Positions 1 through 37,750 of a stretch of 37,750 nucleotides of DNA are shown here, one piece after another; position 1 is the stretch's first letter, and each line of letters starts with the position of its first letter. Origin of the DNA: a virus; the IMG/VR virus record IMGVR_UViG_3300025536_000006; one strand, given 5' to 3'. The notes under the pieces are model-generated. The model saw only the letters and a program-made list of their open reading frames with translations, was not told the DNA's origin and made no database searches. The position numbers and the translations under genes were made by a program.

Positions 1-127
1 CTGCTATGAAAATCTTTAACCTCGTCATGTATCGCCCTAACCAATTCACGAGTCGATTCCAATTTAGAATCCATATGACGAATATCAGATCGTGACTCCG
101 ATCTATTCCATAAAAATAGCGGTATGA
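1..127. repeat. Terminal direct repeat, copy 1 (identical to 37624..37750)
   Basis: Base-by-base comparison: nt 1-127 equal nt 37624-37750 exactly. This looks like an assembler k-mer overlap on a circular or terminally redundant molecule. Unique length is 37623 nt. Confidence 0.95.
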
Positions 128-7447: not shown

Positions 7448-7951
7448 TTATGAATGATGAATTTTACCATGCTCTGATGCAGATACAATTTGAAGATTTT
7501 CAATACGATTATCTGTAGGATTGCCATTGATATGATGAACATGTTCGTTTCTTTTCAAGGGTCTTCCTAAATGTTGTTCCATAAGCCAACGATGTTCGTA
7601 AACTCGTTTTTTATTCACTTGAATTCTTTTTCTAGCATTATTTCCTTGAGATCCCGTTTTTTCAAATCCCCAAGAAGCCAAGCCAATTTTCATAGCCTGT
7701 GCTCGACATTGTCGAGAACAAAATTTCATTCCATATTTTTTCAATTTCAAAACACTGGGTTGCACATAAGTGGTTTTTTTACAAATAGGGCATTCAATCA
7801 TCTTTCCATTTTTAACTTTTTGTGCTCGAATTGGGTTATGAAAATTTGCTCGACAAACGATCGAACAAAATTGACGATTTTGGCTAGGAACTGTATAAAA
7901 TTCCTTAGAACATATTTTACAATAAACAAATTTGCCATTGGCTTTTGGCAT
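7448..7951 (-). CDS. HNH endonuclease with N-terminal zinc knuckles (free-standing, homing-type)
   Basis: HVHHINGNPTDNRIENLQIVSASEH is the HNH core. Repeated CxxC...FCSxxCR units lie N-terminal. It is a lone minus-strand gene between plus-strand genes. Confidence 0.85.
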   Translation of the reverse strand: MPKANGKFVYCKICSKEFYTVPSQNRQFCSIVCRANFHNPIRAQKVKNGKMIECPICKKTTYVQPSVLKLKKYGMKFCSRQCRAQAMKIGLASWGFEKTGSQGNNARKRIQVNKKRVYEHRWLMEQHLGRPLKRNEHVHHINGNPTDNRIENLQIVSASEHGKIHHS

Positions 7952-13140: not shown

Positions 13141-13824
13141 ATGAAAATCTGTCAATCATGCCATCAAGAAAATAAGTCAAACTACGTCAATTTATGCCAA
13201 TCTTGCTACAACAAGAGATGGTTTGCCAAGTTACCATTGAGATATTGTGCTAATTGCTCAAAGGAATATAAGAATTTCGGCAAGCACTGCTTTACATGTG
13301 CTAAAAAAATTAGAGAAGCTAAGCAACCATTAACACCATGTTCTGTATGTCAGCGGACGAGCGTAAAGATCAAAAATAAAACCAAGATACTCTGTAGTAA
13401 ATGCGAAAGGATAAGAAAAGAAGAAGAAATCCCAGGATATAGAGAGAATAGAATTCTTTACAATCGTATTTCCCATAGAAAATATCGCGGTCAAGAACCT
13501 CATGGGCCTCTTAAGCGTAAACCTCCTGGAGATGGTCATGTAAATAAAGATGGATATAAGATCATTACAAAAGTAGGTCATCCGAATGCCAATTCAGATA
13601 AAGGAGCAATCCCAGAACATATTTTTATCATGAGCGAACATTTAAAAAGACCTCTTAAGAAAGGGGAGAGTGTACATCATAAAAATGGTATAAGACACGA
13701 TAATCGAATAGAAAATCTTGAGTTATGGCACAAAGGACAACCTTCGGGGCAGAGAGTTGAAGATAAGATTAGATATTTTAAAGAATTTCTCGTAGATTAT
13801 GGATATATAATTATTGATCCTTGA
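13141..13824 (+). CDS. HNH endonuclease with an array of about six CxxC zinc knuckles
   Basis: SVHHKNGIRHDNRIENLELWH is the HNH core. The N-terminal half is a series of CxxC pairs. It is inserted between TerL and the portal gene. Confidence 0.85.
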   Translation: MKICQSCHQENKSNYVNLCQSCYNKRWFAKLPLRYCANCSKEYKNFGKHCFTCAKKIREAKQPLTPCSVCQRTSVKIKNKTKILCSKCERIRKEEEIPGYRENRILYNRISHRKYRGQEPHGPLKRKPPGDGHVNKDGYKIITKVGHPNANSDKGAIPEHIFIMSEHLKRPLKKGESVHHKNGIRHDNRIENLELWHKGQPSGQRVEDKIRYFKEFLVDYGYIIIDP

Positions 13825-17735: not shown

Positions 17736-17942
17736 TTACTTTCGATTTCTGGTTTTCTCTTCGATAGCACATAGACGCCCGTGGAAGTCTATCATGTCTT
17801 GTCGTATGGCTTCGATTAGTGCAGAAACACGAGTTTCAAGTTGACGATGATCATTACGTGATTCGGATCTATTCCATAACCACAACGTCAAAGTAAATAC
17901 CATGTTTCCTAAAACGAAAATTGTAAATTGTATCCAGTCCAT
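17736..17942 (-). CDS. Small single-pass membrane protein, GRLC-motif family (68 aa)
   Basis: MDWIQFTIFVLGNMVFTLTLWLWNRSESRNDHRQ...MIDFHGRLCAIEEK. It shares WNRSESRxD and DFHGRLCxIEE with its paralogues. It is a lone minus-strand gene inside the head module. Confidence 0.8.
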   Translation of the reverse strand: MDWIQFTIFVLGNMVFTLTLWLWNRSESRNDHRQLETRVSALIEAIRQDMIDFHGRLCAIEEKTRNRK

Positions 17943-17993
17943 TTGAGCCCCTTTGTCCTCTTGTCATTAAATATTTGATTCGTTATGTTGAGG

Positions 17994-18025
17994 TCAGCGT
18001 AACATAAGATTCGCTATCTTAACCC
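17994..18025 (+). promoter_or_regulatory. Conserved box TCAGCGTAACA-N6-TCGCTATCTT, copy A (upstream of the capsid gene)
   Basis: A near-identical box occurs at 30865..30895 (TCAGCGTAACA-N5-TCGCTATCTT). It contains a -10-like TATCTT with no good -35. Both copies are followed by CTTAGGTTC(A/G)AA(T/C)ATG. Confidence 0.5.
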
Positions 18026-18115
18026 ATGGCAGACATATAGGGAATCGCCAACCTAGGCAGTAATTAGTTTTTTTCGCCAAAAACGCCAAAACTAAAACTT
18101 AACTTAGGTTCAAAT

Positions 18116-19072
18116 ATGTCATCTGGGATCACCAACATTAACAACATGGCTCCAGAGCTACCTTTGCAGCTTAGCGAAGATCTGCTCTCTACGCCCATGT
18201 TCAACCTCATTCACAGTTTCGGCGCGGATTTACATTATGCCGAATCACATATTGGGCGAAATATCCGTATGTCCCGATATGAAAGACTCTCCACAAATGG
18301 CGGCCAACTCGATGGTTCTGGTATTGATCCAGCTCCTGAAGTTGTCGTCCGTTCTGATATCGACGCTAAAGTTGAAATCTACGCCAAAACCGTAGTCATC
18401 AACGAGCAAGTTGTATTATGGGAAAACGACAAAGTTCTCACTAAATTCACAGCTCTTCTCGGGCAGTGGCTACGTGAGAAAGAAGATCTTCTGATGCGCG
18501 ATCTTTACGCTTCATCTGTGAGCTACATCAATGCCACAGGCGGGGTAAACGGGGATCAGCCAAGTGAAATTTCTCGTAATGACATCAACAACATTGAGCG
18601 TATCTTGCTTGGCAATGATGCACGCACAATGCTAGAAACCATCGAAGCTCAGAACAAATTCGGTACAGCGCCAACTCGCGATGCCTTCATTGCTCTTGCT
18701 TCGACTGATATCACTCCAGACCTTCAAAACGTTCAAGGCGTACTGCTCAAAAACGCATACCCAATGCAAGAAGGACTGAGACCAGAAGAATACTGTTCAG
18801 TAAGCCGCTTCCGATTCTTTGTCAGCTCAAAAGCTGCTAAGACACCAGGCGCATCTTTGACAGGAGCCACAGTCTATACAATTCCTATGTATGGGCTTGA
18901 AGCTGCAACAAAAGTTGAACAGAACAACTATAGCGCACTCTTAGGGTACAGACCTCCTTATGTTGTGTCTAGCGTTGCCCAAAACAGCCAATTGTATGCC
19001 AAGTTCGCGATCGGTCGAGCAATCACCAATCAGAACTGGATCTCTGGGCTTAACGTAACACAAAGACTGTAA
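18116..19072 (+). CDS. Major capsid protein (HK97 fold, resembling the N4-gp56-type family)
   Basis: GRNIRMSRYERL...GQLDGSGIDPAPE...IDAKVEIYAKTVVINEQV...LLGQWLREKEDLLMRDLY follows the remembered pattern for this capsid family. It lies after the scaffold gene. Confidence 0.8.
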   Translation: MSSGITNINNMAPELPLQLSEDLLSTPMFNLIHSFGADLHYAESHIGRNIRMSRYERLSTNGGQLDGSGIDPAPEVVVRSDIDAKVEIYAKTVVINEQVVLWENDKVLTKFTALLGQWLREKEDLLMRDLYASSVSYINATGGVNGDQPSEISRNDINNIERILLGNDARTMLETIEAQNKFGTAPTRDAFIALASTDITPDLQNVQGVLLKNAYPMQEGLRPEEYCSVSRFRFFVSSKAAKTPGASLTGATVYTIPMYGLEAATKVEQNNYSALLGYRPPYVVSSVAQNSQLYAKFAIGRAITNQNWISGLNVTQRL

Positions 19073-27822: not shown

Positions 27823-28395
27823 ATGGCTTCTGCTATTTTTGGAGTTTTAAAATATTTGCCAGCTTCTTTGGCTAGGAAAGCTCTTGCGAAAGCAAACCCT
27901 GGTTTTGAGAATTATTTCTCTAAAGCTTTGAGTTATGGAGTAGATGCTAATCGCGCATTGGATTATCTCATTGATAAATTTGAAAACAGTGCTCAAAAAG
28001 ATTTTAAACAACAGCAAGAATCTAGAGCTGCCGAAGGAACATTAAGACCTGACGAAATGGCAACTAGAAGTCAGGTGGCAAATGCGGCTATTCCAGGAAA
28101 AATATTGAAAGGAGGAGCATCTGCACTTTTAGGAGGAGCATTAGGAATAGGCTCTGAAAGAAGGCCATCCCAAGAACAAGAACCTACATTAACCGATGAA
28201 GAAAAAAGACAAGCTACTCTCCAAGCATTTAATGAAAGATTACGTTCTAAAAAACCTAAATCTGAACTTTCTAGAGAAGAATTGACCCGTCAATTCGAAG
28301 AATCTCAACAAGGCGGTCAAGGTAAAGCAGCTTTACTGTCGACCATGCAGCAGCTTACCGAAGCGCTAAGGCAAATGAGAGGCCAAGGTGGATGA
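27823..28395 (+). CDS. Hypothetical virion-module protein (190 aa)
   Basis: ORF track with an AAGGAG RBS. Charged and helical. Confidence 0.5.
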   Translation: MASAIFGVLKYLPASLARKALAKANPGFENYFSKALSYGVDANRALDYLIDKFENSAQKDFKQQQESRAAEGTLRPDEMATRSQVANAAIPGKILKGGASALLGGALGIGSERRPSQEQEPTLTDEEKRQATLQAFNERLRSKKPKSELSREELTRQFEESQQGGQGKAALLSTMQQLTEALRQMRGQGG

Positions 28396-29029
28396 ACTTC
28401 TGCGATTGCTTATTCAATTCATAGATCAAATCGAAGGATCATTCGATGAATTGGATGATGCGGAAGCTCAAGAAGTAGCTAACTTCTTAACCGAAACCAT
28501 GAACTTTCTCATGGAAGGTCAAGCAGGTCAAGAACCTGCTCAAGGAGAGCCGCAAGTTGAAGCTCCAATACCTGTAGGAGCCGAACTACTTTGGATTCTA
28601 GCTGGCGGCCAAGAAGATGCCTTTGTCAATTATCTTCGTACTTATCCAGACCCTGCTCTCAACTCTATCTTGCAGAATCCAGAGATGCTCCAATCAACAT
28701 TGGATCGTCTCAATAGGACAATGCCTCAAGGTCTCAGAGGTCAAGAAGGAGGCATTCAACAAGCGCCTATCGATTCGAGTAACATCTACGGATTCAACTA
28801 CAATCCAAAGAGCGGCTCACTCCTAGTCCGATTCCAATCAGGAGCTGTTTATGGATATCAAGGCGTTCCACCTGGAGTTTTCCGCGTGTTTCAACAAGGC
28901 GCAATTCCCGCGAAGACAAAAGGCGAGAATCGTTTTGGAAAGTGGTGGCAAGGTAAGATTCCATCACTGGGGGCGGCCTTTTATGAATTGATTCGTCAAG
29001 GTGGCTATCCGTATCAACGCATTTCATAA
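28388..29029 (+). CDS. KTSC-domain protein (213 aa)
   Basis: IDSSNIYGFNYNPKSGSLLVRFQSGAVYGYQGVPPGVFRVFQQG matches the KTSC domain pattern (S.I..v.Y.....L.V.F..G..Y.Y..VP..v...). Confidence 0.65.
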   Translation: MDELLRLLIQFIDQIEGSFDELDDAEAQEVANFLTETMNFLMEGQAGQEPAQGEPQVEAPIPVGAELLWILAGGQEDAFVNYLRTYPDPALNSILQNPEMLQSTLDRLNRTMPQGLRGQEGGIQQAPIDSSNIYGFNYNPKSGSLLVRFQSGAVYGYQGVPPGVFRVFQQGAIPAKTKGENRFGKWWQGKIPSLGAAFYELIRQGGYPYQRIS

Positions 29030-29227
29030 GCCGAGTCCTTCATGCGCTTTCATCATTTTCACATCGAAAAACATCGTATCCTGATTCTTTTTCATGATCT
29101 TAAGAGTTGTTGCGATCTCGTAAAAATGTTCATGCATGAATTCTGATTGCCCACGATATTGAGCTATAGCCATATAAGTATTCATGACAGTCAAAATCAT
29201 TAAAATAACCATATAAAACTTTTTCAT
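29024..29227 (-). CDS. Small membrane protein (67 aa)
   Basis: N-terminal TM helix FYMVILMILTVMNTYMAIA. Last gene of the leftward small-membrane-protein chain. Confidence 0.55.
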   Translation of the reverse strand: MKKFYMVILMILTVMNTYMAIAQYRGQSEFMHEHFYEIATTLKIMKKNQDTMFFDVKMMKAHEGLGL

Positions 29228-29370
29228 TTCTTTACCTCAAGATGTTCAACTTTAACTTCGAGCTTAGCAATTCTTTCCTTCATGTCAGCTAAATAGATCA
29301 TGATTGTGAAAAATGTAGCTACAGCAACAAAATATATGCCGATTTTTTCCCAATTAACCTTATTTTCCAT
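29224..29370 (-). CDS. Small membrane / coiled-coil protein (48 aa), not in the ORF track
   Basis: Manual translation: MENKVNWEKIGIYFVAVATFFTIMIYLADMKERIAKLEVKVEHLEVKK. ATGA coupling to the downstream gene. Confidence 0.5.
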   Translation of the reverse strand: MENKVNWEKIGIYFVAVATFFTIMIYLADMKERIAKLEVKVEHLEVKK

Positions 29371-29434
29371 GAGGGACACTCCAATAAATTCCCCAAGATA
29401 AGATCAAGATACATAAAATAATAGGCCAGATCAT
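29360..29434 (-). CDS. Tiny hydrophobic peptide (24 aa), tentative
   Basis: MIWPIILCILILSWGIYWSVPHGK. AAGGAG RBS. Its start overlaps the upstream stop (ATGA). Confidence 0.3.
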   Translation of the reverse strand: MIWPIILCILILSWGIYWSVPHGK

Positions 29435-29592
29435 TTCTTACTCCTTTCCTCTAATGTGCAAAGTCTGCCATTGATTTCGCTCAAGTCTTTATGGATTCCA
29501 TCTATTTTTGATCCAAGATAAAACATAGGGGCCAACATTAACCCAATAAATGTTGCTATGCCGCCGATAAATCCTACGATTTCGAGAGCCAT
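29431..29592 (-). CDS. Small single-pass membrane protein, divergent GRLC-motif family member (53 aa), not in the ORF track
   Basis: Codon-by-codon manual translation: MALEIVGFIGGIATFIGLMLAPMFYLGSKIDGIHKDLSEINGRLCTLEERSKK. Confidence 0.65.
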   Translation of the reverse strand: MALEIVGFIGGIATFIGLMLAPMFYLGSKIDGIHKDLSEINGRLCTLEERSKK

Positions 29593-29600
29593 TGTCCAGT

Positions 29601-29786
29601 TCATTTTCTACTCTCTTCAATGGCGCAAAGTCTACCGTGGAAGTCCTTCATTTCGGTTTCTATTGCTCGCAGGATCACCATTGTTTCTGCTCTTAATTCT
29701 CGATTATCTGAACGTGATTCTGATCTGTTCCAAAAAAATAAGCCCGCAAAAGTCACGATCAAAATTAGAAATTGTGTCCATTCCAT
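29601..29786 (-). CDS. Small single-pass membrane protein, GRLC-motif family (61 aa)
   Basis: MEWTQFLILIVTFAGLFFWNRSESRSDNRE...MKDFHGRLCAIEESRK. Confidence 0.8.
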   Translation of the reverse strand: MEWTQFLILIVTFAGLFFWNRSESRSDNRELRAETMVILRAIETEMKDFHGRLCAIEESRK

Positions 29787-29835
29787 AACCTCTCTCCTTG
29801 TATATCACTAGTCTATAATATTCAGACATTTAAGA

Positions 29836-30255
29836 TCAATCTCTTTCCTTCGCTTCATCTTCTTGCGTTTTTTCTTGTGAAAGAAATTCCTGAATCTTTT
29901 GAATATCTACTAGTTCTTTTTCTAATTCTATAAAATGTTTTTTAAGATTCCATGCAAGGTTTTCAATTTCTTCTATTTGCATTTTCACATTGGCCAAACT
30001 GTACGGAATTTTGCTAATTCTTTCCTTCATCTTGGTCTCATCAGCCAAACAAAGTCCTCTTTCATTTAAAAATAATCTAATTTCAAATAATGATCTTTTG
30101 CCAAAATTCCTTTCCTTCATTAATTCAGAAGAAGTCCATTTTATTAAATCATTAATCGTAAGGATATTAATTCTCCTTAAACAGTTCTCTGTTCTAGCAG
30201 AAAAATTTGCATCTCTTATTTTTAAATCAAGAATCGTTATGATTTTTTCAGTCAT
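29836..30255 (-). CDS. RNA polymerase alpha-subunit C-terminal-domain (alpha-CTD)-like protein with a C-terminal coiled coil
   Basis: ANFSARTENCLRRINILTINDLIKWTSSELMKERNFGKRSLFEIRLFLNERGLCL aligns with E. coli alpha-CTD [55 protein letters not shown]. The R-x-x-N-C and G-K-K/R-S motifs are retained. Confidence 0.8.
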   Translation of the reverse strand: MTEKIITILDLKIRDANFSARTENCLRRINILTINDLIKWTSSELMKERNFGKRSLFEIRLFLNERGLCLADETKMKERISKIPYSLANVKMQIEEIENLAWNLKKHFIELEKELVDIQKIQEFLSQEKTQEDEAKERD

Positions 30256-30502
30256 TTTTCTCCCTTTTTTGTGAATTTCTCATAGGATGATTTTTAAATT
30301 TCTCCTTCATCCTTTCACATGTTTTGTCGAAAAATTCATCAGAATAATTTGCCATTGCCATAGTCCCAACAAAAGAAATCTTTAAAAAAGCTAAAACGGC
30401 AGATCTGCTCCAACCATTTGCGATGGCAAAGACAAGAATTAGTCTATGTAATTCATCAATTTCTTCTTGAGAAGGATATTTCTTCATTTTTTCTCCCAAC
30501 AA
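30248..30502 (-). CDS. Hypothetical helical protein (84 aa)
   Basis: ORF track. It overlaps both neighbours. Confidence 0.5.
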   Translation of the reverse strand: MLGEKMKKYPSQEEIDELHRLILVFAIANGWSRSAVLAFLKISFVGTMAMANYSDEFFDKTCERMKEKFKNHPMRNSQKREKND

Positions 30503-30759
30503 GGAAACACAGCGATATCATCATGACCACATTCTTCACATTTACCGATCATAGCCATTTGAGTCCCTTTCAAATTCCATTTGCCACAAGCTTCACAAAG
30601 ACGAATACATGTAGAGCGTTTATCCTTCAACTTATTCTCTATGACATGGGCTAGCCATTCTTGGATGCTCTTACCTTCTTTATAGGCTTGCAATTTTGCT
30701 CTGCGATGAAGGTCTCCATCTATCCGAATAGCTAAATATTTTTCTGTTATCTTCTGCAT
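30484..30759 (-). CDS. Ribbon-helix-helix (CopG/Arc-like) regulator with a C-terminal zinc ribbon
   Basis: LAIRIDGDLHRRAKLQAYKEGKSIQEWLAHVIENKL looks like an RHH. CEACG...CEECG forms the ribbon. First gene of the leftward operon. Confidence 0.55.
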   Translation of the reverse strand: MQKITEKYLAIRIDGDLHRRAKLQAYKEGKSIQEWLAHVIENKLKDKRSTCIRLCEACGKWNLKGTQMAMIGKCEECGHDDIAVFPCWEKK

Positions 30760-30793
30760 ATTTTACTCTCTTATTTGAGGCTAACAACTTATC

Positions 30794-30805
30794 ATTGTGC
30801 ACAAT
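30794..30805. promoter_or_regulatory. Perfect 12-bp palindrome ATTGTGCACAAT (candidate operator)
   Basis: Read directly, about 35 nt upstream of the RHH gene start in the divergent control region. Confidence 0.35.
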
Positions 30806-30864
30806 TCCTGGCAATATGGATTAATTTTTCGTAGCAATCTAAAACTTTATTTTGTACATTGGGC

Positions 30865-30895
30865 TCAGCGTAACAAGAAGTCGCTATCTTGATCC
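30865..30895 (+). promoter_or_regulatory. Conserved box TCAGCGTAACA-N5-TCGCTATCTT, copy B (upstream of the fibre gene)
   Basis: It matches 17994..18025 apart from the spacer (1-nt indel) and the flanks. The same CTTAGGTTCGAACTATG initiation context precedes 30962. Confidence 0.5.
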
Positions 30896-30961
30896 TGTAG
30901 GCTGTAGCTACGTTCGCCTTCGTAACAATTTTAGTCTGAAATTTTTACTTAGGTTCGAACT

Positions 30962-33337
30962 ATGACATCAAATTCAATGGGTCAAAACCCACTCGGATAT
31001 ACAGGCATCAACTTCTTTCAAAACCCTGTCCTCATCACTGCTAATCGTGCTCCTACAACTAATGACATTTATCCTATCGGAACTCGATGGTCTGATGGCT
31101 CTGTAAATCCACCTGTTATCTATGAAACTACTGGTAACGGCATCTGGGATGTTGGAGCAAACCCAGTAGCAACAACAACCTCAACAGGTATAGTTGAACT
31201 TGCTACTTATGCAGAACTCTCTACAGGAACAGCTCCTGCCGCATACTATGTTGGCACAGCTAATGACGTTTTCACCTATATCAATTCCGTAGCCGTAGCC
31301 GGAGCCCCTATTGCTCAAACAGGCGTTACAGGGATTACCAACCTAGCTACAGATGCGCAGGCCGTAGCAGGAACAGCAACAGTCCCTGGGGTCACGGCTC
31401 TTGCAGTACAACCATCTAACCTCGCTGCGGTATTTGCAGCTCCTCCAGCAATCGGTGGTACAACTCCAGCTGCTGGGTCATTTACTGCGGTTATTGGTAC
31501 AACAGCTAATTTCTCAGGTCTCATCACAGGCACTGCAAGCGCAACCATCACTACTGGCGCAACAGCTCTTAACCTGGCCTCTGATGCTTCAACTGGTGCA
31601 GTAAATATCGGTACTGGAGCCGGTGCACGTGTAATTACCATTGGTAACGTTACAGGCGCAACGGCGGTAGCTATCAATACAGGTACAGGATCATTTGCGG
31701 TTGCAACAACAGGCGCAGGGGACATCACCTTAACATCTGCCGATACCGTCCTTATCGATGGCGCAGGCGTTGTTGAGATTAATTCCTCGGCTGGCGTGAT
31801 CTCAATTGGCAATGATGCCGTAGCTCAAAATATTAATATTGGTACAGGTGCCGCCGCACGAGTAATTACTTTGGGTAACTCTACAGGCGCCACACAAGTC
31901 GTTCTTAATGGTGGAACAGCAGGGATCTCAGTCGGAGCCAACGCAATTGCACAACCGATCGTCATCGGTAATCAGACTGGTGCAACCAGCGTTACCGTTG
32001 ATTCGGGTACAGGAGCAATCAATATCGGTACTGCGATTGCCAAAACAATCACCATTGGTAATGCTACTGGAGCGACTGCGGTTAACATCACAGCAGGTAC
32101 AGGCGGTTCAACCTATACGACTACAAACGGAACGTTCTCGTTGGTGACTGGTACGGGAGCTATTAATATTGGAGCTGATGCCGCCGCACATACAATTACC
32201 ATTGGTAACTCTACAGGTGCTACATCAGTTGTTGTAAACTGTGGTACAGGCGCTCTTAACATTGGTACGAACGCCATTGCTCACACAGTGACTATCGGTA
32301 ACGTTACTGGTGCCACAGCCGTAAACGTCAATTCGGGCACAGGTGCTTGCGCTTGGACGACAACTAATGGTTCATTCGGCCTGGTGACTGGTACCGGAGC
32401 TATTAACCTTGGGGCTGATGCCGCCGCGAAAACGATTACCATTGGTAATATCACTGGCGCGACTGCCGTCAACGTGAACTCAGGAACTGGGGCATGTGCT
32501 TGGACAACCACAAACGGTAGCTTTGGCTTAGTTACAGGTACAGGTGCAATCAACATCGGGGCTGATGCCGCCGCCAAGACTATAACAATTGGTAACCAAA
32601 CGGGCGCTACAAGTGTTGTAATCGATGCAGGTACAGGTGCATTGAACATTGGTACAGCAATTGCTAAGACCATCACTATCGGTAACATCACAGGCGCAAC
32701 AGCCGTGAATATCAATACCGGAACTGGTGGCTCTACATATACCACTACTAATGGCACATTTGGACTTGTTACTGGAACAGGCGCAATCAACATCGGAGCT
32801 GATGCCGCTGCCAAAACGATTACTATCGGTAACGTGACAGGAGCAACCGCCGTTAATGTCAACTCTGGTAGCGGAGCATGTGCTTGGACTACAACCAATG
32901 GAAGTTTTGGGATTGTCACAGGAACAGGCGCGATCAATATCGGAGCTGATGCCGCTGCTAAGACTATTACAATCGGTAATACAACTGGTGCTACTGCGGT
33001 CAATATTACAGCAGGATCAGGTGCTGTAAACTGTGCTACAGACTTTAACTTGACATCAGTTGCAACTAAGATCTCGATGAATGGCGGTGCAGTAACCGAC
33101 TTCATCGGCAGAGCTACTCTTGTTGCTGGAACTGTAACCGTGGCTAATACCAACATCGCAGCAGGTGATAGGATCTTCGTAACAAGATCAGCCTTGAATG
33201 GCTCGCCAGCATTGGGATTCCCGATCACTACTATCAGCGCAGGCGCAAGCTTCACCATCGCAGCTTATAGCGCAGCTGGTGCTGCCGTAGCTACAGACGT
33301 CTCCACATTTGACTATCTGATTGTCCGGCAGACCTAG
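30962..33337 (+). CDS. Repetitive fibre / receptor-binding-type protein (791 aa)
   Basis: The N terminus carries the tail-fibre-like motifs TGIVELATYAELSTGT and GITNLATDAQAVAGT. Eleven copies of I-T-I-G-N-x-T-G-A-T-x-V follow, then a non-repetitive C-terminal domain. Confidence 0.7.
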   Translation: MTSNSMGQNPLGYTGINFFQNPVLITANRAPTTNDIYPIGTRWSDGSVNPPVIYETTGNGIWDVGANPVATTTSTGIVELATYAELSTGTAPAAYYVGTANDVFTYINSVAVAGAPIAQTGVTGITNLATDAQAVAGTATVPGVTALAVQPSNLAAVFAAPPAIGGTTPAAGSFTAVIGTTANFSGLITGTASATITTGATALNLASDASTGAVNIGTGAGARVITIGNVTGATAVAINTGTGSFAVATTGAGDITLTSADTVLIDGAGVVEINSSAGVISIGNDAVAQNINIGTGAAARVITLGNSTGATQVVLNGGTAGISVGANAIAQPIVIGNQTGATSVTVDSGTGAINIGTAIAKTITIGNATGATAVNITAGTGGSTYTTTNGTFSLVTGTGAINIGADAAAHTITIGNSTGATSVVVNCGTGALNIGTNAIAHTVTIGNVTGATAVNVNSGTGACAWTTTNGSFGLVTGTGAINLGADAAAKTITIGNITGATAVNVNSGTGACAWTTTNGSFGLVTGTGAINIGADAAAKTITIGNQTGATSVVIDAGTGALNIGTAIAKTITIGNITGATAVNINTGTGGSTYTTTNGTFGLVTGTGAINIGADAAAKTITIGNVTGATAVNVNSGSGACAWTTTNGSFGIVTGTGAINIGADAAAKTITIGNTTGATAVNITAGSGAVNCATDFNLTSVATKISMNGGAVTDFIGRATLVAGTVTVANTNIAAGDRIFVTRSALNGSPALGFPITTISAGASFTIAAYSAAGAAVATDVSTFDYLIVRQT
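31600..33030 (+). repeat. In-frame coding tandem repeats (alternating 49-aa and about 79-80-aa units)
   Basis: The landmark GG(A/G)GCTGATGCCGC recurs at 32171, 32411, 32558, 32795 and 32942, with spacings of 240, 147, 237 and 147 nt. The peptide is nearly identical between units, while third codon positions differ. Confidence 0.85.
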
Positions 33338-33392: not shown

Positions 33393-34010
33393 ATGCACGG
33401 AATATCAGAGTGCGAGACATGTGGGCAAAAATATAAGTGGAGAAGATGCAATAAGGGTAAACCGCCTAGATTTTGCTCTTTTAAATGCAGGAGTTGGAAG
33501 GGTTTAAAGGGTAGGACAAAAAATTCTGAACTATCAGAAGAAGCCAATCTTGCTAGAATAAAAAAAAATTATGAAAAGAATGTTGTTAAACAGGAAGGCT
33601 GCTGGGATTGGAAGGGATGTGTAGTTCGAGGGTATGCAATATTAGGAATTCGTCCTTATCTTAAAGCTCATAGAGCCTCATGGATAGTACATAATGGGCC
33701 GATTCCAAAAGGGGTTCTTGTTTGTCATACTTGTGACAACACAAAATGTACAAATCCAGAGCACTTGTGGCTTGGAACATATAAAGAAAATACACAAGAC
33801 AAAATAAAGAAAGGCAGATCAAATACTCCTAATGGAAGCCAACTAAAAGTAGCTAAATTAACTGAAGAACAAGTTGAAAAAATAAAGTTTATGCTGAATG
33901 ATAAAATACAAGGCAGTGAAATCGCTAGGATGTTTGGAGTTTCACCGAAAGTGATATCTCGCATAAAGCATAATGAAACATGGAAGCATGTTGAGGTAAT
34001 TAATGGCTAA
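33393..34010 (+). CDS. HNH homing-type endonuclease with a C-terminal HTH
   Basis: VCHTCDNTKCTNPEHLWLGTYKENTQD is an HNH_3-type core. There is an N-terminal CETCG...FCSFKCR knuckle and a C-terminal IARMFGVSPKVISRIKHNETW helix-turn-helix. Confidence 0.8.
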   Translation: MHGISECETCGQKYKWRRCNKGKPPRFCSFKCRSWKGLKGRTKNSELSEEANLARIKKNYEKNVVKQEGCWDWKGCVVRGYAILGIRPYLKAHRASWIVHNGPIPKGVLVCHTCDNTKCTNPEHLWLGTYKENTQDKIKKGRSNTPNGSQLKVAKLTEEQVEKIKFMLNDKIQGSEIARMFGVSPKVISRIKHNETWKHVEVING

Positions 34011-35039: not shown

Positions 35040-35591
35040 ATGAGTCAATTTTTTAGAGATCCTTCTGCAAGTCCTCCTCCTCCTGGATCAGTTGTAGAAT
35101 TTACTGGTGATACCGGTACAAATCCCGTACCTCCAGATGGCTCAGGCAATGTAAATTTATTTGAAGATCCTACAGCGCCAGGCATAATAACCCGAGGTAA
35201 TATAGCCACAAACACAGTGTTCTTTGGCTTAGCTCAACCCACAACCTGTGGTACAGGACAAACGATCAATACCGGCACAGCGGATCTTGTAACATTGTCG
35301 CTCGGTGCTTCTGCTGCTACCTATACTTTGAATGCAAATGTGGCAGGAAAAGCAGCAACCCAATCAGGTGTTGGGGGCACATCTTTTGCAGTTGTACGTA
35401 CAGATGGAGCGACAGCAACATTAATCGATATTAGCGACGATGTCATCAACAGTGATTTAGTGTTAGCAGGTGCGTCATTTACTTTCGTTGCCTCGGGCAA
35501 TGATGTTATTTTGAGGGCTACGGGCTCTCTTGGAACAGTAATCAATTGGAACGGCTGCGTTACATATGTATCCGTTGTAGCAGGTATATAA
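35040..35591 (+). CDS. Tail-fibre-associated protein (183 aa)
   Basis: The FTGDTGTNPVPPDGSGNVNL motif recalls N-terminal segments of phage fibre proteins. It lies directly upstream of the tailspike gene. Confidence 0.45.
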   Translation: MSQFFRDPSASPPPPGSVVEFTGDTGTNPVPPDGSGNVNLFEDPTAPGIITRGNIATNTVFFGLAQPTTCGTGQTINTGTADLVTLSLGASAATYTLNANVAGKAATQSGVGGTSFAVVRTDGATATLIDISDDVINSDLVLAGASFTFVASGNDVILRATGSLGTVINWNGCVTYVSVVAGI

Positions 35592-37288
35592 TGGCTGGTA
35601 TAAAAAACGATGTCTTGTACGGCTTGAATGCTGATTTTTCAAGAGCAGGAGCACATACTGCTTCCGAATCCAATGGTCTAGTCGTTGATGCCGATCTTTG
35701 GATAGGCTCTACTGCATTGAACGCTGGCGGAACTCATATTAATAAAGGCACTCTTACTTCACCCAACAGCTCAATCACTTTTGGGTATTCTTCTCCAAAC
35801 ATCACAGCGGTAGTAAATACAGCCGTAATCACCGATCTTCACACAGCGAGATTCATCGTAAGTGCTGGGGGTCTTACAGACGGTGCGAATTATACCTCAA
35901 TTCAAACGGCTATCAATGCAGCGGCAGGAGCCGGAGGCAATCAGACAGTCTTTATCCAGCCAGGGACATATACAGAGAATCTAACGCTGGCAGCAGGCGT
36001 GAATCTATGTGCATATGGGCCGAGTTCTATGTTTAATCAAAACACAGGAACAATTCCCAATGTAGTTATTAAAGGAACATGTACTTTTACATCAGCAGGA
36101 ATAGTCGGCATACAAGGAATTTGTCTTGAAACAAATAGTGCTGCGGCTCTAGCAGTTACAGGATCGTCGGCTTCTCAAGTAATTTTAGATAAATGTTATT
36201 TGAATTGCACTGACAATACTGGAGTCACTTTTTCTTCATCTTCATCATCTAGTCTCATTGAGTTTTTATATTGCTCGGGAGATATCGCTACAACTGGAAT
36301 TGCACTTTTTGCTCATAGTGGGGCAGGACAATTAAGAACTCTTTATACATTTTTTTTAAATTCAGGCCTATCTACTACTGCAAATACTGTCTCAGGCACA
36401 GGATTTTTTGGCCCCAATTACAGCTCTTTTGCCAATGGTATTTCTTTATCTAACTCAGCTTCAGGAAATGGTGGACAAAATAACTATCATATGGCTGCAG
36501 CACAAGTTTGCATTACAACAGCAAATACTGCTAGCTACTCTGAAGAGATGGGTCTATTTGTTGCCGGCGCATCAAAAGCAATTAGTATTGGCGCAGGATC
36601 TGCAGTAGCTCTTTATACATGTTTTGTTAGTGGTTCTGTAAGTGCAGTCATTGATGGCACAGGAACGCTTACATATACCAATCTGACTATGAATTCAAAT
36701 GCTACAATCAATTCAGGATTGACTATTTCCAATGGAGCATCAAATACATATATTTCTGGACAAGGCGCAGGTACAGCAGGCCAGGTTTTAACATCTAATG
36801 GCGCATATGCACCTCAGACTTGGCAAACGCCTTCGGGAGGAAAATTAGTACAACAAGTCAGAGTAAATAAAACGGCAGCCCAAACCGTAACATCATCAAT
36901 AACAGCAATTACCACCCAACCCACTACTTCAACTGGCACATCCGTTGTGAGTGTTAGCATCACGCCAACTAATGCAAGCAATATATTATTGATTGAAGGA
37001 AATCTAGTATGTACAAGCGGGGGTAACTTTGTTTCTGCCTATATCATACAAAACTCAGCAGGCAATGGGTTTGGTACAGCGTGGCAAAGTGGTTCAGCCG
37101 CCAACCTTCCGATGACTATCCCTATCAGATATTACATGACAGCGGGGGGAACATCGGCTATTACTTTTGATCTGTATACCACTGTTCAATCTGGTGGGAA
37201 CGTATACGTAAACGCTAATACTTCCGGAACTCAGCTATCGGGCGGCAGTGCGTTTACTAGTCTTGTAATCTCTGAGATTCAAGTCTAG
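35591..37288 (+). CDS. Tailspike with a right-handed beta-helix (pectin-lyase-fold-like); possible depolymerase
   Basis: ANYTSIQTAINAAAGAGGNQTVFIQPGTYTENLTLAAGVNLCAYG is typical of the start of a parallel beta-helix. The start is moved to the ATG at 35591 (TAATG coupling). Confidence 0.6.
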   Translation: MAGIKNDVLYGLNADFSRAGAHTASESNGLVVDADLWIGSTALNAGGTHINKGTLTSPNSSITFGYSSPNITAVVNTAVITDLHTARFIVSAGGLTDGANYTSIQTAINAAAGAGGNQTVFIQPGTYTENLTLAAGVNLCAYGPSSMFNQNTGTIPNVVIKGTCTFTSAGIVGIQGICLETNSAAALAVTGSSASQVILDKCYLNCTDNTGVTFSSSSSSSLIEFLYCSGDIATTGIALFAHSGAGQLRTLYTFFLNSGLSTTANTVSGTGFFGPNYSSFANGISLSNSASGNGGQNNYHMAAAQVCITTANTASYSEEMGLFVAGASKAISIGAGSAVALYTCFVSGSVSAVIDGTGTLTYTNLTMNSNATINSGLTISNGASNTYISGQGAGTAGQVLTSNGAYAPQTWQTPSGGKLVQQVRVNKTAAQTVTSSITAITTQPTTSTGTSVVSVSITPTNASNILLIEGNLVCTSGGNFVSAYIIQNSAGNGFGTAWQSGSAANLPMTIPIRYYMTAGGTSAITFDLYTTVQSGGNVYVNANTSGTQLSGGSAFTSLVISEIQV

Positions 37289-37592: not shown

Positions 37593-37750
37593 CTACCTTC
37601 TTTTCTCTTCGATTTTACACAGTCTGCTATGAAAATCTTTAACCTCGTCATGTATCGCCCTAACCAATTCACGAGTCGATTCCAATTTAGAATCCATATG
37701 ACGAATATCAGATCGTGACTCCGATCTATTCCATAAAAATAGCGGTATGA
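37593..37750 (-). CDS. 3' part of the junction-spanning GRLC-family gene (same gene as 1..176)
   Basis: Reverse translation ends ...DFHSRLCKIEEKRR, with the stop codon (TAG) at 37593-37595. The full gene is 207 nt (68 aa) on the circular molecule. Confidence 0.8.
   Translation of the reverse strand, partial: IPLFLWNRSESRSDIRHMDSKLESTRELVRAIHDEVKDFHSRLCKIEEKRR
37624..37750. repeat. Terminal direct repeat, copy 2
   Basis: Identical to nt 1-127. Confidence 0.95.

What the first reader, a model, noticed from the sequence alone, without database searches (positions are those of the whole stretch)
29836..30255. Phage-encoded stand-alone RNA polymerase alpha-CTD-like protein fused to a coiled coil
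Residues about 15-70 align position by position with the C-terminal domain of bacterial RpoA: ARTENCLRRINILTINDLIKWTSSELMKERNFGKRSLFEI versus E. coli [40 protein letters not shown]. The alignment includes the equivalents of R265, N268, C269, G296, K298 (here R) and S299. In E. coli these residues contact UP-element DNA.

The alpha N-terminal assembly domain is absent. A roughly 65-aa coiled coil follows instead, which could dimerise the module. The phage has no RNA polymerase or sigma factor that I can see. A free alpha-CTD mimic could therefore redirect host transcription. It could compete for UP elements or activator contact surfaces, or tether RNAP-binding factors to phage promoters. To my knowledge the function of such phage alpha-CTD-only proteins has not been established.
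Basis: partly seen in the sequence, partly recalled or inferred. Interest (0 to 1): 0.75.

Follow-up and report, generated by a model that had tools for sequence, protein, structure and literature searches.

The report
Phage-encoded free RNA polymerase alpha-CTD protein
An uncultured phage carries a small accessory gene whose product is a genuine copy of the DNA-binding tail domain of the bacterial RNA polymerase alpha subunit joined to a coiled coil. This protein type is already annotated in other phages but has never been tested, and it probably tunes host transcription.

Summary
Window 29836-30255 (-) encodes a 139-aa protein. Residues 7-70 are a true RpoA alpha-CTD: Pfam PF03118 scores E=3.7e-16, and the AlphaFold model superposes on solved alpha-CTDs at 0.5-1.0 A. 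All 50 listed PDB fold matches are RpoA. R265, N268, C269, N294, G296, K297 and S299 are kept, and K298 is R. There is no alpha-NTD. Residues 87-125 form a regular six-heptad coiled coil.

The window is a complete circular phage genome of about 37.6 kb, and Pfam finds no RNAP or sigma factor in it.

The gene is not core. It sits in a 1.9-kb opposite-strand cargo cassette at a variable junction. None of 38 related phages carries it there, and the conserved boxes persist in a relative that lacks it.

The protein type is not new. Stand-alone alpha-CTD proteins occur in at least 45 distinct IMG/VR viral contigs and in UniProt phage entries. They are often fused to sigma region 4, Mor, HTH or RHH domains. 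I found no paper on their function.

The most likely role is a dimeric binder of AT-rich, UP-element-like DNA that modulates host RNAP. Whether it competes or activates is unresolved.

Verdict: new member of a known but uncharacterised kind, of moderate interest.

The parts
29836..30255 (-). Gene for the 139-aa alpha-CTD plus coiled-coil protein (stop codon included)
   Evidence: ORF list. Pfam PF03118 E=3.7e-16. The only alpha-CTD ORF in the window.
30260..30265 (-). Shine-Dalgarno AGGGAG, 4 nt before the ATG. The ATG lies inside the end of the upstream gene (ATGACTGA overlap).
   Evidence: Read directly from the sequence.
30046..30237 (-). Alpha-CTD domain, residues 7-70. It has a double helix-hairpin-helix fold and the 265-determinant residues R21, N24, C25, N50, G52, K53, R54 and S55.
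   Evidence: RMSD 0.5-1.0 A to solved alpha-CTDs, including DNA-bound 1lb2, 3n97 and 9zum.
29998..30045 (-). Linker, residues 71-86. It contains a short helix (71-81), and pLDDT is about 60, so it is probably flexible.
29842..29997 (-). C-terminal long helix, residues 87-138. Heptad coiled coil spans 87-125, followed by an acidic end. The whole tail (residues 71-139) has pI 4.9 and the CTD (residues 1-70) has pI 9.6.
30248..30502 (-). Upstream gene of unknown function. The ORF is 84 aa, but the likely start is the ATG at 30487, giving 79 aa, preceded by GGGAG. It overlaps the target's start codon.
   Evidence: No family hit. The single-sequence AF2 model is helical but of low confidence, pLDDT 62.
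30484..30759 (-). First gene of the cassette: a 91-aa ribbon-helix-helix protein (HicB/Arc-like) with a CxxC...CxxC zinc ribbon. Its stop overlaps the next gene's ATG (ATGA).
   Evidence: Pfam HicB 2.9e-5. PHROG HicB-like and Arc-like hits. Sequence read directly.
29024..29786 (-). Four small downstream genes. Three are paralogous proteins with an N-terminal TM helix and a C-terminal amphipathic helix (61, 57 and 51 aa). The fourth is a 67-aa ORF.
   Evidence: Repeat families D6 and D7. Homologues at the same junction in relatives.
29024..30759 (-). The whole opposite-strand cargo cassette, lying between the KTSC-domain late gene (28388-29029, +) and the tail-fibre gene (30962-33337, +).
   Evidence: In 38 relatives this junction varies from 17 to 2764 bp and carries different cargo.

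Best explanation
The gene encodes a free alpha-CTD module that cannot assemble into RNA polymerase, because it has no alpha-NTD. Its C-terminal coiled coil most likely pairs it into a dimer. That would present two basic alpha-CTDs on short flexible linkers, much as RNAP presents its own two alpha-CTDs.

Every residue that alpha-CTD uses to read the minor groove of AT-rich UP elements is retained. I therefore infer that the protein binds UP-element-like AT-rich DNA, and possibly alpha-CTD-docking partners. By doing so it would compete with the host polymerase's own alpha-CTDs. The expected effect is to damp UP-element-dependent and class-I-activator-dependent host promoters and shift RNAP towards other promoters.

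It is an accessory (moron-like) gene. It is translationally coupled to a ribbon-helix-helix/zinc-ribbon DNA-binding protein and a small unknown protein, and either may target or regulate it.

Shown: domain identity, fold, conserved DNA-contact residues, heptad coiled coil, lack of an NTD, accessory status, and gene coupling.

Inferred: dimerisation, DNA binding, competition with RNAP, and the direction of the effect.
For: Domain and fold.

DNA-contact residues are conserved in this protein (offset). Across 45 viral stand-alone alpha-CTD proteins, R265 is kept in 45/45, S299 in 39/45, N268 in 35/45 and K/R298 in 36/45. The DNA-binding face is therefore what selection keeps.

The CTD is basic (pI 9.6) and the tail has a regular heptad pattern.

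There is no alpha-NTD, and RpoA equivalog scores fall far below cutoff.

Pfam finds no phage RNAP or sigma factor, so the phage depends on host RNAP.

Phages are known to attack exactly this interface. T4 Alt and ModA ADP-ribosylate alpha R265 and abolish UP-element and CRP contacts (PMC2988021). The phiKMV protein Rac causes cleavage of alpha (PMC7552054).

The E261 equivalent, which contacts sigma region 4 in E. coli, is N here. This fits a competitor slightly better than a recruiter.
Against: There are no experimental data of any kind.

Isolated alpha-CTD binds DNA only weakly (general knowledge), so effective competition would need high expression or avidity.

The host is unknown. I could not compare the domain with the host's own alpha-CTD or check that host promoters use UP elements.

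About a quarter of viral alpha-CTD proteins are fused to sequence-specific transcription-factor domains: sigma r4, Mor, HTH and RHH. This points at least as much to promoter-specific regulation or activation as to global competition.

The gene is missing from nearly all relatives, so its effect is dispensable.
Confidence: 0.35

Rival explanations
1. Promoter-specific co-regulator or activator. The alpha-CTD/coiled-coil protein works with the co-translated RHH/zinc-ribbon protein, and perhaps the 79-84-aa protein, at specific operators. The RHH partner supplies sequence specificity. The alpha-CTD supplies flanking minor-groove contacts, or a contact to sigma region 4 or to RNAP's own alpha-CTD, and so recruits or positions host RNAP.
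For: Three genes are translationally coupled (ATGA and ATGACTGA overlaps).

One viral protein, L027, fuses alpha-CTD and a FitA-like RHH in a single chain, which is a Rosetta-stone hint. Others fuse alpha-CTD to Sigma70_r4 (5), Mor (2) or HTH_17 (3).

In other viral contigs the gene lies in early, replication or regulatory regions: near DNA polymerase A in 12 loci, near an integrase, or about 2 kb upstream of a terminase.

D259 is retained.
Against: The E261 equivalent is lost (N17).

The gene is absent from 38 of 38 relatives at this junction and from 80 loci around the tail genes, so it is not the phage group's late activator.

The boxes upstream of the MCP and fibre genes are conserved in L141, which lacks the gene.

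The RHH gene itself has no homologue in the relatives.
Confidence: 0.27
2. A nucleoid-associated or architectural DNA-binding protein. An oligomerising coiled coil plus an AT-rich minor-groove reader is the same design logic as H-NS/MvaT/Lsr2. It could act in silencing or anti-silencing, or as an accessory factor for DNA transactions such as site-specific inversion.
For: The architecture is a coiled coil plus a minor-groove AT binder.

The related phage L006 has the reverse order: a long N-terminal helical region followed by a C-terminal alpha-CTD. Its gene start overlaps the end of a Gin-like DNA invertase gene. Gin-type invertases need a DNA-bending accessory protein, Fis (general knowledge).
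Against: There is no recombinase in this window. There is no sequence relation to H-NS-type proteins. Only six heptads are present, which suggests a dimer more than a filament. The many viral fusions to transcription-factor domains point to transcription.
Confidence: 0.13
3. A decoy substrate or target. The free alpha-CTD soaks up factors that attack or dock on RNAP alpha-CTD, such as ADP-ribosyltransferases or takeover proteins from competing phages, or host regulators like Spx- or CRP-type activators. That would give superinfection exclusion or host reprogramming without any DNA binding.
For: The gene has moron-like, opposite-strand, variable-cargo status. Alpha-CTD is a documented target of phage enzymes. 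R265, the residue T4 modifies, is kept.
Against: This is purely speculative. Conservation across viral homologues is concentrated on the DNA-contact face. The host and its competing phages are unknown.
Confidence: 0.08
4. A non-functional remnant of a captured host rpoA 3' end, or a generic HhH domain mislabelled as alpha-CTD.
For: The gene is unique. Only the protein itself was found in the 5.8-billion-protein word search, and there is no full-length homologue among 1.84 billion representatives.
Against: The ORF is intact, with its own Shine-Dalgarno sequence and coupling to the upstream gene. It has a new, well-formed coiled coil. All key residues are kept. All 50 listed structural matches are alpha-CTDs, and the HHH_5 family did not match this protein. 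The same architecture type recurs in many viral contigs.
Confidence: 0.04

Closest known systems
C-terminal domain of the bacterial RNA polymerase alpha subunit (RpoA alpha-CTD, Pfam PF03118; e.g. PDB 1lb2, 3n97, 1z3e, 9zum)
   Same: Same fold, at 0.5-1.0 A RMSD and 38-43% identity to E. coli and B. subtilis. The DNA-contact residues R265, N268, C269, N294, G296, K297 and S299 are the same, and K298 is R.
   Different: It is not attached to an alpha-NTD or to the long flexible linker, so it cannot be an RNAP subunit. It carries a C-terminal coiled coil instead. The E261, V287 and R317 equivalents differ (N, S and E). It is encoded by a phage.
[quoted passage not shown]
   Same: They are small phage proteins of about 100-290 aa, consisting of one alpha-CTD plus a lineage-specific extension. 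None has an alpha-NTD. R265 is invariant (PMC9127768).
   Different: The tail of this protein has no detectable homologue. Only the architecture type recurs: alpha-CTD first, then a helical tail of about 70 aa. None of these proteins has a tested function.
Viral alpha-CTD fusions to transcription-factor DNA-binding domains (Sigma70_r4, Mor, HTH_17, FitA-like RHH), e.g. MT835636/L002, L004, L017, L038, L027
   Same: They share the same alpha-CTD module in phage genomes. Some also contain a coiled-coil segment between the domains.
   Different: Here the sequence-specific DNA-binding domain is not in the same chain. An RHH/zinc-ribbon protein is instead encoded two genes upstream in the same coupled operon.
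T4 Alt/ModA ADP-ribosyltransferases and phiKMV Rac (phage factors that disable alpha-CTD function)
   Same: They would have the same physiological target, the alpha-CTD/UP-element/activator interface of host RNAP (PMC2988021, PMC7552054). If the decoy model is right, the outcome would also be similar.
   Different: The mechanism is entirely different: enzymes that modify or cleave alpha, versus a stoichiometric mimic. There is no sequence or structural relation.
H-NS-type xenogeneic silencers (oligomerisation coiled coil plus AT-rich minor-groove binding domain)
   Same: The design is the same: a coiled coil joined by a linker to a small basic domain that reads AT-rich minor grooves.
   Different: The folds are unrelated and the domain order is reversed. 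The coiled coil here is short. Nothing about this comparison was tested.

Membership tests
Pfam PF03118 RNA_pol_A_CTD domain family | The profile HMM score is above the curated gathering threshold. | tested here: met
   59 bits against a cutoff of 23.8, E=3.7e-16, residues 7-64 covering model positions 9-66 of 67.
Pfam PF03118 RNA_pol_A_CTD domain family | A compact fold of about 65 residues with two helix-hairpin-helix motifs that superposes on solved alpha-CTDs. | tested here: met
   AF2 pLDDT is above 90 over the domain. In Foldseek, all 50 listed PDB matches are alpha-CTDs, with RMSD 0.5-1.0 A and target TM-scores of 0.8-0.93.
Pfam PF03118 RNA_pol_A_CTD domain family | The '265 determinant' DNA-contact residues are present (R265, N268, C269, G296, K298, S299). 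| tested here: met
   R21, N24, C25, G52, R54 (conservative) and S55, from the ungapped alignment offset of +244.
Pfam PF03118 RNA_pol_A_CTD domain family | The domain actually binds AT-rich UP-element DNA. | not testable with these tools
   This needs EMSA or anisotropy with purified protein.
RpoA (RNA polymerase alpha subunit) | An N-terminal dimerisation/assembly domain is present (PF01193/PF01000), and the full-length equivalog score is reached. | tested here: not met
   There is no NTD family hit. NCBIfam RpoA equivalogs score 42-58 bits against cutoffs of 228-523 and align only to model positions of about 233-338. The protein is 139 aa.
RpoA (RNA polymerase alpha subunit) | The gene sits in a ribosomal-protein operon context (rpsD-rpoA-rplQ). 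| tested here: not met
   The neighbours are phage genes. True rpoA contaminants in the phage database do show rpsD and rplQ flanks (L001 and L003).
Stand-alone viral alpha-CTD proteins (uncharacterised; annotated by domain name only) | A short phage-encoded protein with a single PF03118 domain, no alpha-NTD, and a lineage-specific extension. | tested here: met
   This protein. Comparison set: 45 of 45 IMG/VR proteins hit PF03118, and none hit alpha-NTD families. BFVD entries.
Stand-alone viral alpha-CTD proteins (uncharacterised; annotated by domain name only) | The protein is orthologous over its full length to other members. | tested here: not met
   The tail (residues 69-139) has no significant match to any of the 56 viral ORFs (best E=0.048). 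There is no full-length homologue in either protein database.
Dimeric coiled-coil (leucine-zipper-like) proteins | An uninterrupted heptad repeat with hydrophobic a/d positions inside a long helix. | tested here: met
   Positions a/d are L87, V90, I94, I97, A101, L104, F108, L111, L115, I118 and L125. The helix spans 87-138 with pLDDT above 90.
Dimeric coiled-coil (leucine-zipper-like) proteins | The oligomeric state is demonstrated. | not testable with these tools
   Only single-chain prediction is available. This needs SEC-MALS, AUC or a multimer prediction.
H-NS-like silencers | Homology to the H-NS/MvaT/Lsr2 DNA-binding or oligomerisation domains. | tested here: not met
   No such family appears in the Pfam, PHROG or NCBIfam results. 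The resemblance is architectural only.

The most novel reading that the evidence does not exclude
Free, coiled-coil-dimerised alpha-CTD proteins are a widespread, uncharacterised class of phage transcription-takeover factors. They would work by molecular mimicry of the polymerase's own promoter-upstream reader. They would occupy UP elements or alpha-CTD docking sites, either alone or targeted by partner or fused sigma-r4/Mor/RHH domains, and so reprogram which promoters host RNAP uses. This would be a stoichiometric counterpart to T4's enzymatic inactivation of alpha R265.
Probability: 0.3. Interest if true: 0.7.

Novelty: new member of a known kind. Interest (0 to 1): 0.45.

Why it matters
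The contact between alpha-CTD, UP elements and activators is a major control point of bacterial transcription. Phages are known to disable it enzymatically.

A phage-made free alpha-CTD would be a simple mimicry route to the same control point. The family is numerous in viral metagenomes, and no functional study turned up in my searches.

This particular protein is small, soluble-looking and modular: a basic DNA-binding domain joined to a zipper. It is therefore an easy entry point for EMSA, in vitro transcription and two-hybrid assays.

If the decoy or co-activator role is confirmed, it would add a new class of host-takeover or regulatory factor. It would also explain why alpha-CTD keeps being fused to sigma-r4, Mor and RHH domains in phages.

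If the role is not confirmed, this is simply another accessory DNA-binding protein.

Tried and rejected
1. Close homologues. The word-indexed search of 5.8 billion proteins found only the protein itself. The exact-sequence contig look-up found nothing on record, and cluster membership gave no name. Single-protein pattern scans of IMG/VR and of GTDB genomes found nothing.

2. Host identification failed.
- A TerL scan of genomes found nothing.
- The window has no tRNA genes.
- Megablast against GenBank phages found nothing.
- A portal tblastn found only a 25%-identity hit in Pseudomonas phage Itty13.
Comparison with the host's own RpoA was therefore impossible.

3. Cultured-phage homologues. A tblastn search gave 11 records, but most are bacterial rpoA contamination flanked by rpsD and rplQ (L001 and L003). 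Only MT835636 is a genuine phage multidomain alpha-CTD protein.

4. PHROGs has no family covering the alpha-CTD part.

5. The idea that the conserved boxes at 17994 and 30865 are this protein's targets is rejected as a requirement, because L141 keeps the boxes without the gene. Other relatives share no exact motif longer than 11 nt between the regions upstream of MCP and fibre.

6. Tail homology among viral alpha-CTD proteins is not significant. My crude heptad score does not discriminate well across the family, so I do not claim that all tails are coiled coils.

7. Defence-system membership. Only a weak PglW match turned up (E about 1e-3). I treat it as a shared HhH-like segment and nothing more.

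8. Rfam found no known RNA family anywhere in the window.

9. The promoter scan of the cassette region found fewer sigma-70-like sites than in shuffled sequence, so it is uninformative.

10. The single-sequence AF2 model of the upstream 84-aa protein has low confidence (pLDDT 62), so I ran no fold search on it.

11. The Iyer and Aravind 2012 paper on the bacterial transcription apparatus could not be read because it is not held.

Full report
**Observation.** The ORF at 29836-30255 on the minus strand exists as described. It has an ATG start and encodes 139 aa. An AGGGAG Shine-Dalgarno sequence lies 4 nt upstream, and the start codon sits inside the end of the preceding gene (ATGACTGA).

Pfam assigns residues 7-64 to PF03118, the bacterial RNA polymerase alpha-chain C-terminal domain. 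The match is E=3.7e-16 at 59 bits, against a gathering cutoff of 23.8. A sequence search of the PDB returns almost only RpoA chains. The best are Francisella alpha-2 at 2e-11, B. subtilis alpha-CTD at 3e-10 and E. coli at 6e-7.

The E. coli alignment is ungapped, with query 11-71 matching alpha 255-315.
- R21=R265, N24=N268 and C25=C269.
- G52=G296, R54=K298 and S55=S299.
- N50=N294 and K53=K297 also match.
- D259 is kept as D15, but E261 is N17.

**Structure.** An AlphaFold2 model built on a 46-sequence alignment has mean pLDDT 87.5, and above 90 over the domain. In Foldseek against the PDB, all 50 matches listed are RpoA alpha-CTDs. RMSD is 0.5-1.0 A over 63-65 residues, and target TM-scores are 0.8-0.93. 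The matches include DNA-bound alpha-CTDs (1lb2, 3n4m, 3n97, 9zum).

That criterion is not met.

After a low-confidence linker (residues 71-86, pLDDT about 60) comes a single helix spanning 87-138. Its heptad register is clean. Position a is L87, I94, A101, F108 and L115, and position d is V90, I97, L104, L111, I118 and L125. Ten of 13 core positions are strongly hydrophobic. A 28-residue window scores 8/8, a value that 2 of 50 shuffles reach.

The coiled coil is real but spans about six heptads, not about 65 residues. The alpha-CTD half (residues 1-70) is basic (pI 9.6) and the tail (residues 71-139) is acidic (pI 4.9).

There is no alpha-NTD. NCBIfam RpoA equivalogs align only through their C-terminal ends, and they score 42-58 bits against cutoffs of 228-523. 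The protein contains an alpha-CTD but is not an RpoA.

**Genome context.** The window is a complete circular phage genome of about 37.6 kb, because bases 1-127 repeat exactly at 37624-37750. It encodes TerL, portal, major capsid protein and tail proteins, plus RecT, an exonuclease, an O-like initiator and an IstB-like loader. About 50 ORFs were scanned against Pfam, and none hit a sigma factor or an RNA polymerase. The phage presumably relies on host RNAP.

The target lies in a 1.9-kb minus-strand cassette (29024-30759). The cassette is embedded between two plus-strand late genes, a KTSC-domain protein (28388-29029) and the tail fibre (30962-33337). Its gene order is:
- a 91-aa ribbon-helix-helix protein with a zinc ribbon (Pfam HicB 2.9e-5; PHROG Arc-like and HicB-like hits);
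- a 79-84-aa protein of unknown function;
- the alpha-CTD protein;
- three paralogous small proteins, each with a TM helix and an amphipathic helix;
- a 67-aa ORF.

The first three genes overlap at their stop and start codons (ATGA and ATGACTGA) and share a GGGAGAAAA-ATG ribosome-binding context. They are probably made together.

**Is the gene core or cargo?** The phage belongs to a large uncultured group. An alignment-based portal scan found 137 IMG/VR relatives at 39-83% identity. A scan with a tail protein found 140. There is no close cultured relative.

An alpha-CTD HMM finds no hit in the 80 loci spanning 10 kb either side of the tail-protein gene. It finds only one hit in the 80 portal loci.

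In 38 relatives that cover the KTSC-to-fibre junction, the gap ranges from 17 to 2764 bp. The cargo there is different and lies mostly on the minus strand: small TM/coiled-coil proteins, RHH proteins, a helicase, DUF29-like proteins and HNH endonucleases. None is an alpha-CTD gene. The gene is therefore accessory cargo at an insertion hot spot.

The one relative with an alpha-CTD gene is L006/L092, whose portal is 44% identical. It carries the gene in a different place, a 7.5-kb insertion between the portal and scaffold genes. Its domain order is reversed: a 230-aa protein with a long N-terminal helical region and a C-terminal alpha-CTD that shares the unusual RTENCL motif. Its start overlaps the end of a Gin-like DNA invertase gene (E=3.5e-28 to Mu Gin).

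**The conserved boxes.** The motif is TCAGCGTAACA-N4-(A/G)TTCGCTATCTT, followed by a shared TTACTTAGGTTC(A/G)AA leader end. They are also conserved upstream of the MCP and fibre genes in L141. L141's MCP N-terminus (the first 120 aa compared) is 95% identical, yet it lacks any alpha-CTD gene. The boxes do not depend on this protein.

**How common is the type?** The protein itself is an orphan. Only the protein itself was found in the word-indexed 5.8-billion-protein search, and there is no full-length relative among 1.84 billion cluster representatives.

In that exhaustive search, 5654 proteins match at E<=1e-3. The top of the list is dominated by cellular proteins with 2-11 tandem alpha-CTD repeats, or TPR plus two alpha-CTDs. 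The domain is thus a mobile module well beyond RpoA.

NCBI already names cellular stand-alone versions 'DNA-directed RNA polymerase subunit alpha C-terminal domain-containing protein'.

In viruses, a pattern-limited IMG/VR scan returned 56 loci. In these the domain sits in ORFs of 101-424 aa. Forty-five sequences were scanned: the query, 43 non-redundant representatives of those loci, and MT835636. All hit PF03118, and none hit alpha-NTD families. Co-occurring domains were Sigma70_r4 (5), HTH_17 (3), Mor (2), FitA-like RHH (1) and other HTH domains.

About half of these ORFs have the same layout as ours, with alpha-CTD first and then a helical tail of about 70 aa. The tails are not detectably homologous to ours.

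[quoted passage not shown] These include uncultured Caudovirales entries of 111-135 aa, Rhodococcus phage Finch and Mycobacterium phage Mithril. An Erythrobacter phage paper lists such an ORF (PMC9127768).

Across the 45 viral proteins, conservation at positions not forced by the search patterns is:
- R265 in 45/45;
- S299 in 39/45;
- N268 in 35/45;
- K/R298 in 36/45.

N294, G296 and K297 are also invariant, but they were part of the search pattern.

In other contigs the gene lies near DNA polymerase A (12 loci), a helicase, an integrase, or just upstream of a terminase. These are early, replication or regulatory regions.

I found no paper that tests the function of any such protein.

**Mechanism.** Shown: a bona fide alpha-CTD with an intact DNA-reading face, no means of joining RNAP, a zipper-like tail, co-translation with an RHH/zinc-ribbon protein, and accessory status.

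Inferred: the tail makes a dimer that presents two alpha-CTDs, which bind AT-rich UP-like minor grooves.

My preferred reading (0.35) is competition with the host polymerase's own alpha-CTDs for UP elements or docking partners. This would damp UP- and activator-dependent host promoters. It would be a stoichiometric analogue of what T4 Alt and ModA achieve by ADP-ribosylating R265 (PMC2988021). The loss of the E261 equivalent fits a competitor slightly better than a recruiter.

The main rival (0.27) is a promoter-specific co-regulator that works with the RHH partner. It is supported by the gene coupling, the alpha-CTD-RHH fusion in L027, and the sigma-r4 and Mor fusions elsewhere.

Lesser rivals are:
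- an H-NS-like architectural role or a recombination-accessory role (0.13; compare the invertase linkage in L006);
- a decoy for factors that target alpha-CTD (0.08);
- a dead remnant or a generic HhH domain (0.04), contradicted.

**Verdict.** Function is untested, the link to the boxes is weakened, and the gene is dispensable cargo.

This is a new member of a known but uncharacterised kind. Interest is moderate at 0.45. A specialist would not be astonished that the domain occurs in phages, because databases already label it. The family is nonetheless abundant, unstudied and directly testable, and a mimicry mechanism would be a worthwhile addition to phage-host transcription biology.

Noticed in passing
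window 1-127 and 37624-37750: There is an exact 127-bp terminal direct repeat. The contig is therefore a circularly closed, complete phage genome of about 37,623 bp. Many IMG/VR relatives are 37-39 kb.
   Followed up: partly
window 17970-18118 and 30841-30964: The leaders upstream of the major capsid and tail-fibre genes share conserved elements. One is the box TCAGCGTAACA-N4-(A/G)TTCGCTATCTT, about 95-120 nt before the ATG. The other is a shared TTACTTAGGTTC(A/G)AA(T/C)ATG start context. It does not look like a sigma-70 promoter, and there is no Rfam hit. It is conserved in relative L141 but not recognisable in more distant relatives. It may be a late promoter or leader element.
   Followed up: partly
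window 17736-17942 (-), 29224-29379 (-), 29431-29604 (-), 29601-29786 (-), and about 37590 across the origin (-): At least five paralogous small genes encode proteins of 51-68 aa. Each has an N-terminal TM helix and a C-terminal helix ending in ...DFHGRLCAIEE.... All lie on the minus strand within or next to plus-strand late genes. Homologues recur as cargo at the KTSC-fibre junction of related phages. No family matched them, and their function is unknown.
   Followed up: partly
window 29029-30962, compared with L141-L217: The junction between the KTSC-domain gene and the tail-fibre gene is a hot spot for variable cargo. In 38 relatives the gap ranges from 17 to 2764 bp. The cargo includes small TM proteins, RHH proteins, a helicase, DUF29-like proteins and HNH endonucleases.
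   Followed up: yes
L006 4971-6213 (IMGVR_UViG_3300029258_004552): A related phage carries a 230-aa protein with an N-terminal helical region and a C-terminal alpha-CTD. Its ATG overlaps the end of a Gin-like DNA invertase gene. Both sit inside a roughly 7.5-kb insertion between the portal and scaffold genes, which also holds a DEAD-like helicase and a signal-peptide protein.
   Followed up: partly
L027 6001-6408; L002 3398-4393; L004, L017, L038, L005, L036, L051/L054: Some viral proteins fuse alpha-CTD to a FitA-like RHH, to HTH_17 plus a sigma-r4-like domain plus a coiled coil, to sigma r4 alone, or to Mor. The sigma-r4 plus alpha-CTD combination would mimic the polymerase's whole module for reading the upstream promoter.
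   Followed up: partly
proteins P0002-P0150, e.g. P0002, P0024, P0008: Cellular and metagenomic proteins carry 2-11 tandem alpha-CTD repeats. One is 1031 aa with a signal-peptide-like N-terminus. A common architecture of about 445 aa combines TPR repeats with two alpha-CTDs. I know of no characterisation of these.
   Followed up: no
window 30962-33337: The tail-fibre gene contains about 10 imperfect tandem repeats with a period of mostly 147 nt (49 aa) and the motif ...TITIGN-x-TGATAVN-x-N-x-GTG.... GC content rises to 49% here, against about 41% for the genome.
   Followed up: no
window 35546-37288: A 580-aa late protein gives a sub-threshold match of its C-terminus to the Pgp3 C-terminal (TNF-like trimer) domain of the Chlamydia plasmid protein (E=5.6e-5, 23.4 bits against a cutoff of 25). 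It could be a receptor-binding tip. It is too weak to serve as a host clue.
   Followed up: no
window 7448-7951 (-), 13141-13824 (+), 33393-34010 (+): There are three HNH_3 homing-endonuclease-like genes. One lies between the terminase and portal genes, and one lies directly after the tail fibre.
   Followed up: no
window, whole genome: Pfam and PHROG scans recognised no integrase, CI-like repressor or lysis genes (endolysin, holin), despite a lambdoid-style exo/RecT and O-like/IstB-like replication module. The phage's lifestyle and host remain unknown.
   Followed up: partly
window 29836-30255 product, residues 12-106: There is a weak match to an internal segment (about residues 800-890) of the BREX kinase PglW (E about 1e-3 in both NCBIfam and PADLOC). 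PglW may contain an alpha-CTD-like HhH segment.
   Followed up: no
L001 and L003 (MT835508, MT836419, 'Bacteriophage sp.' GenBank records): These 'phage' records carry a full rpsD-rpoA-rplQ operon. They are bacterial contamination, or host DNA within virome contigs.
   Followed up: yes
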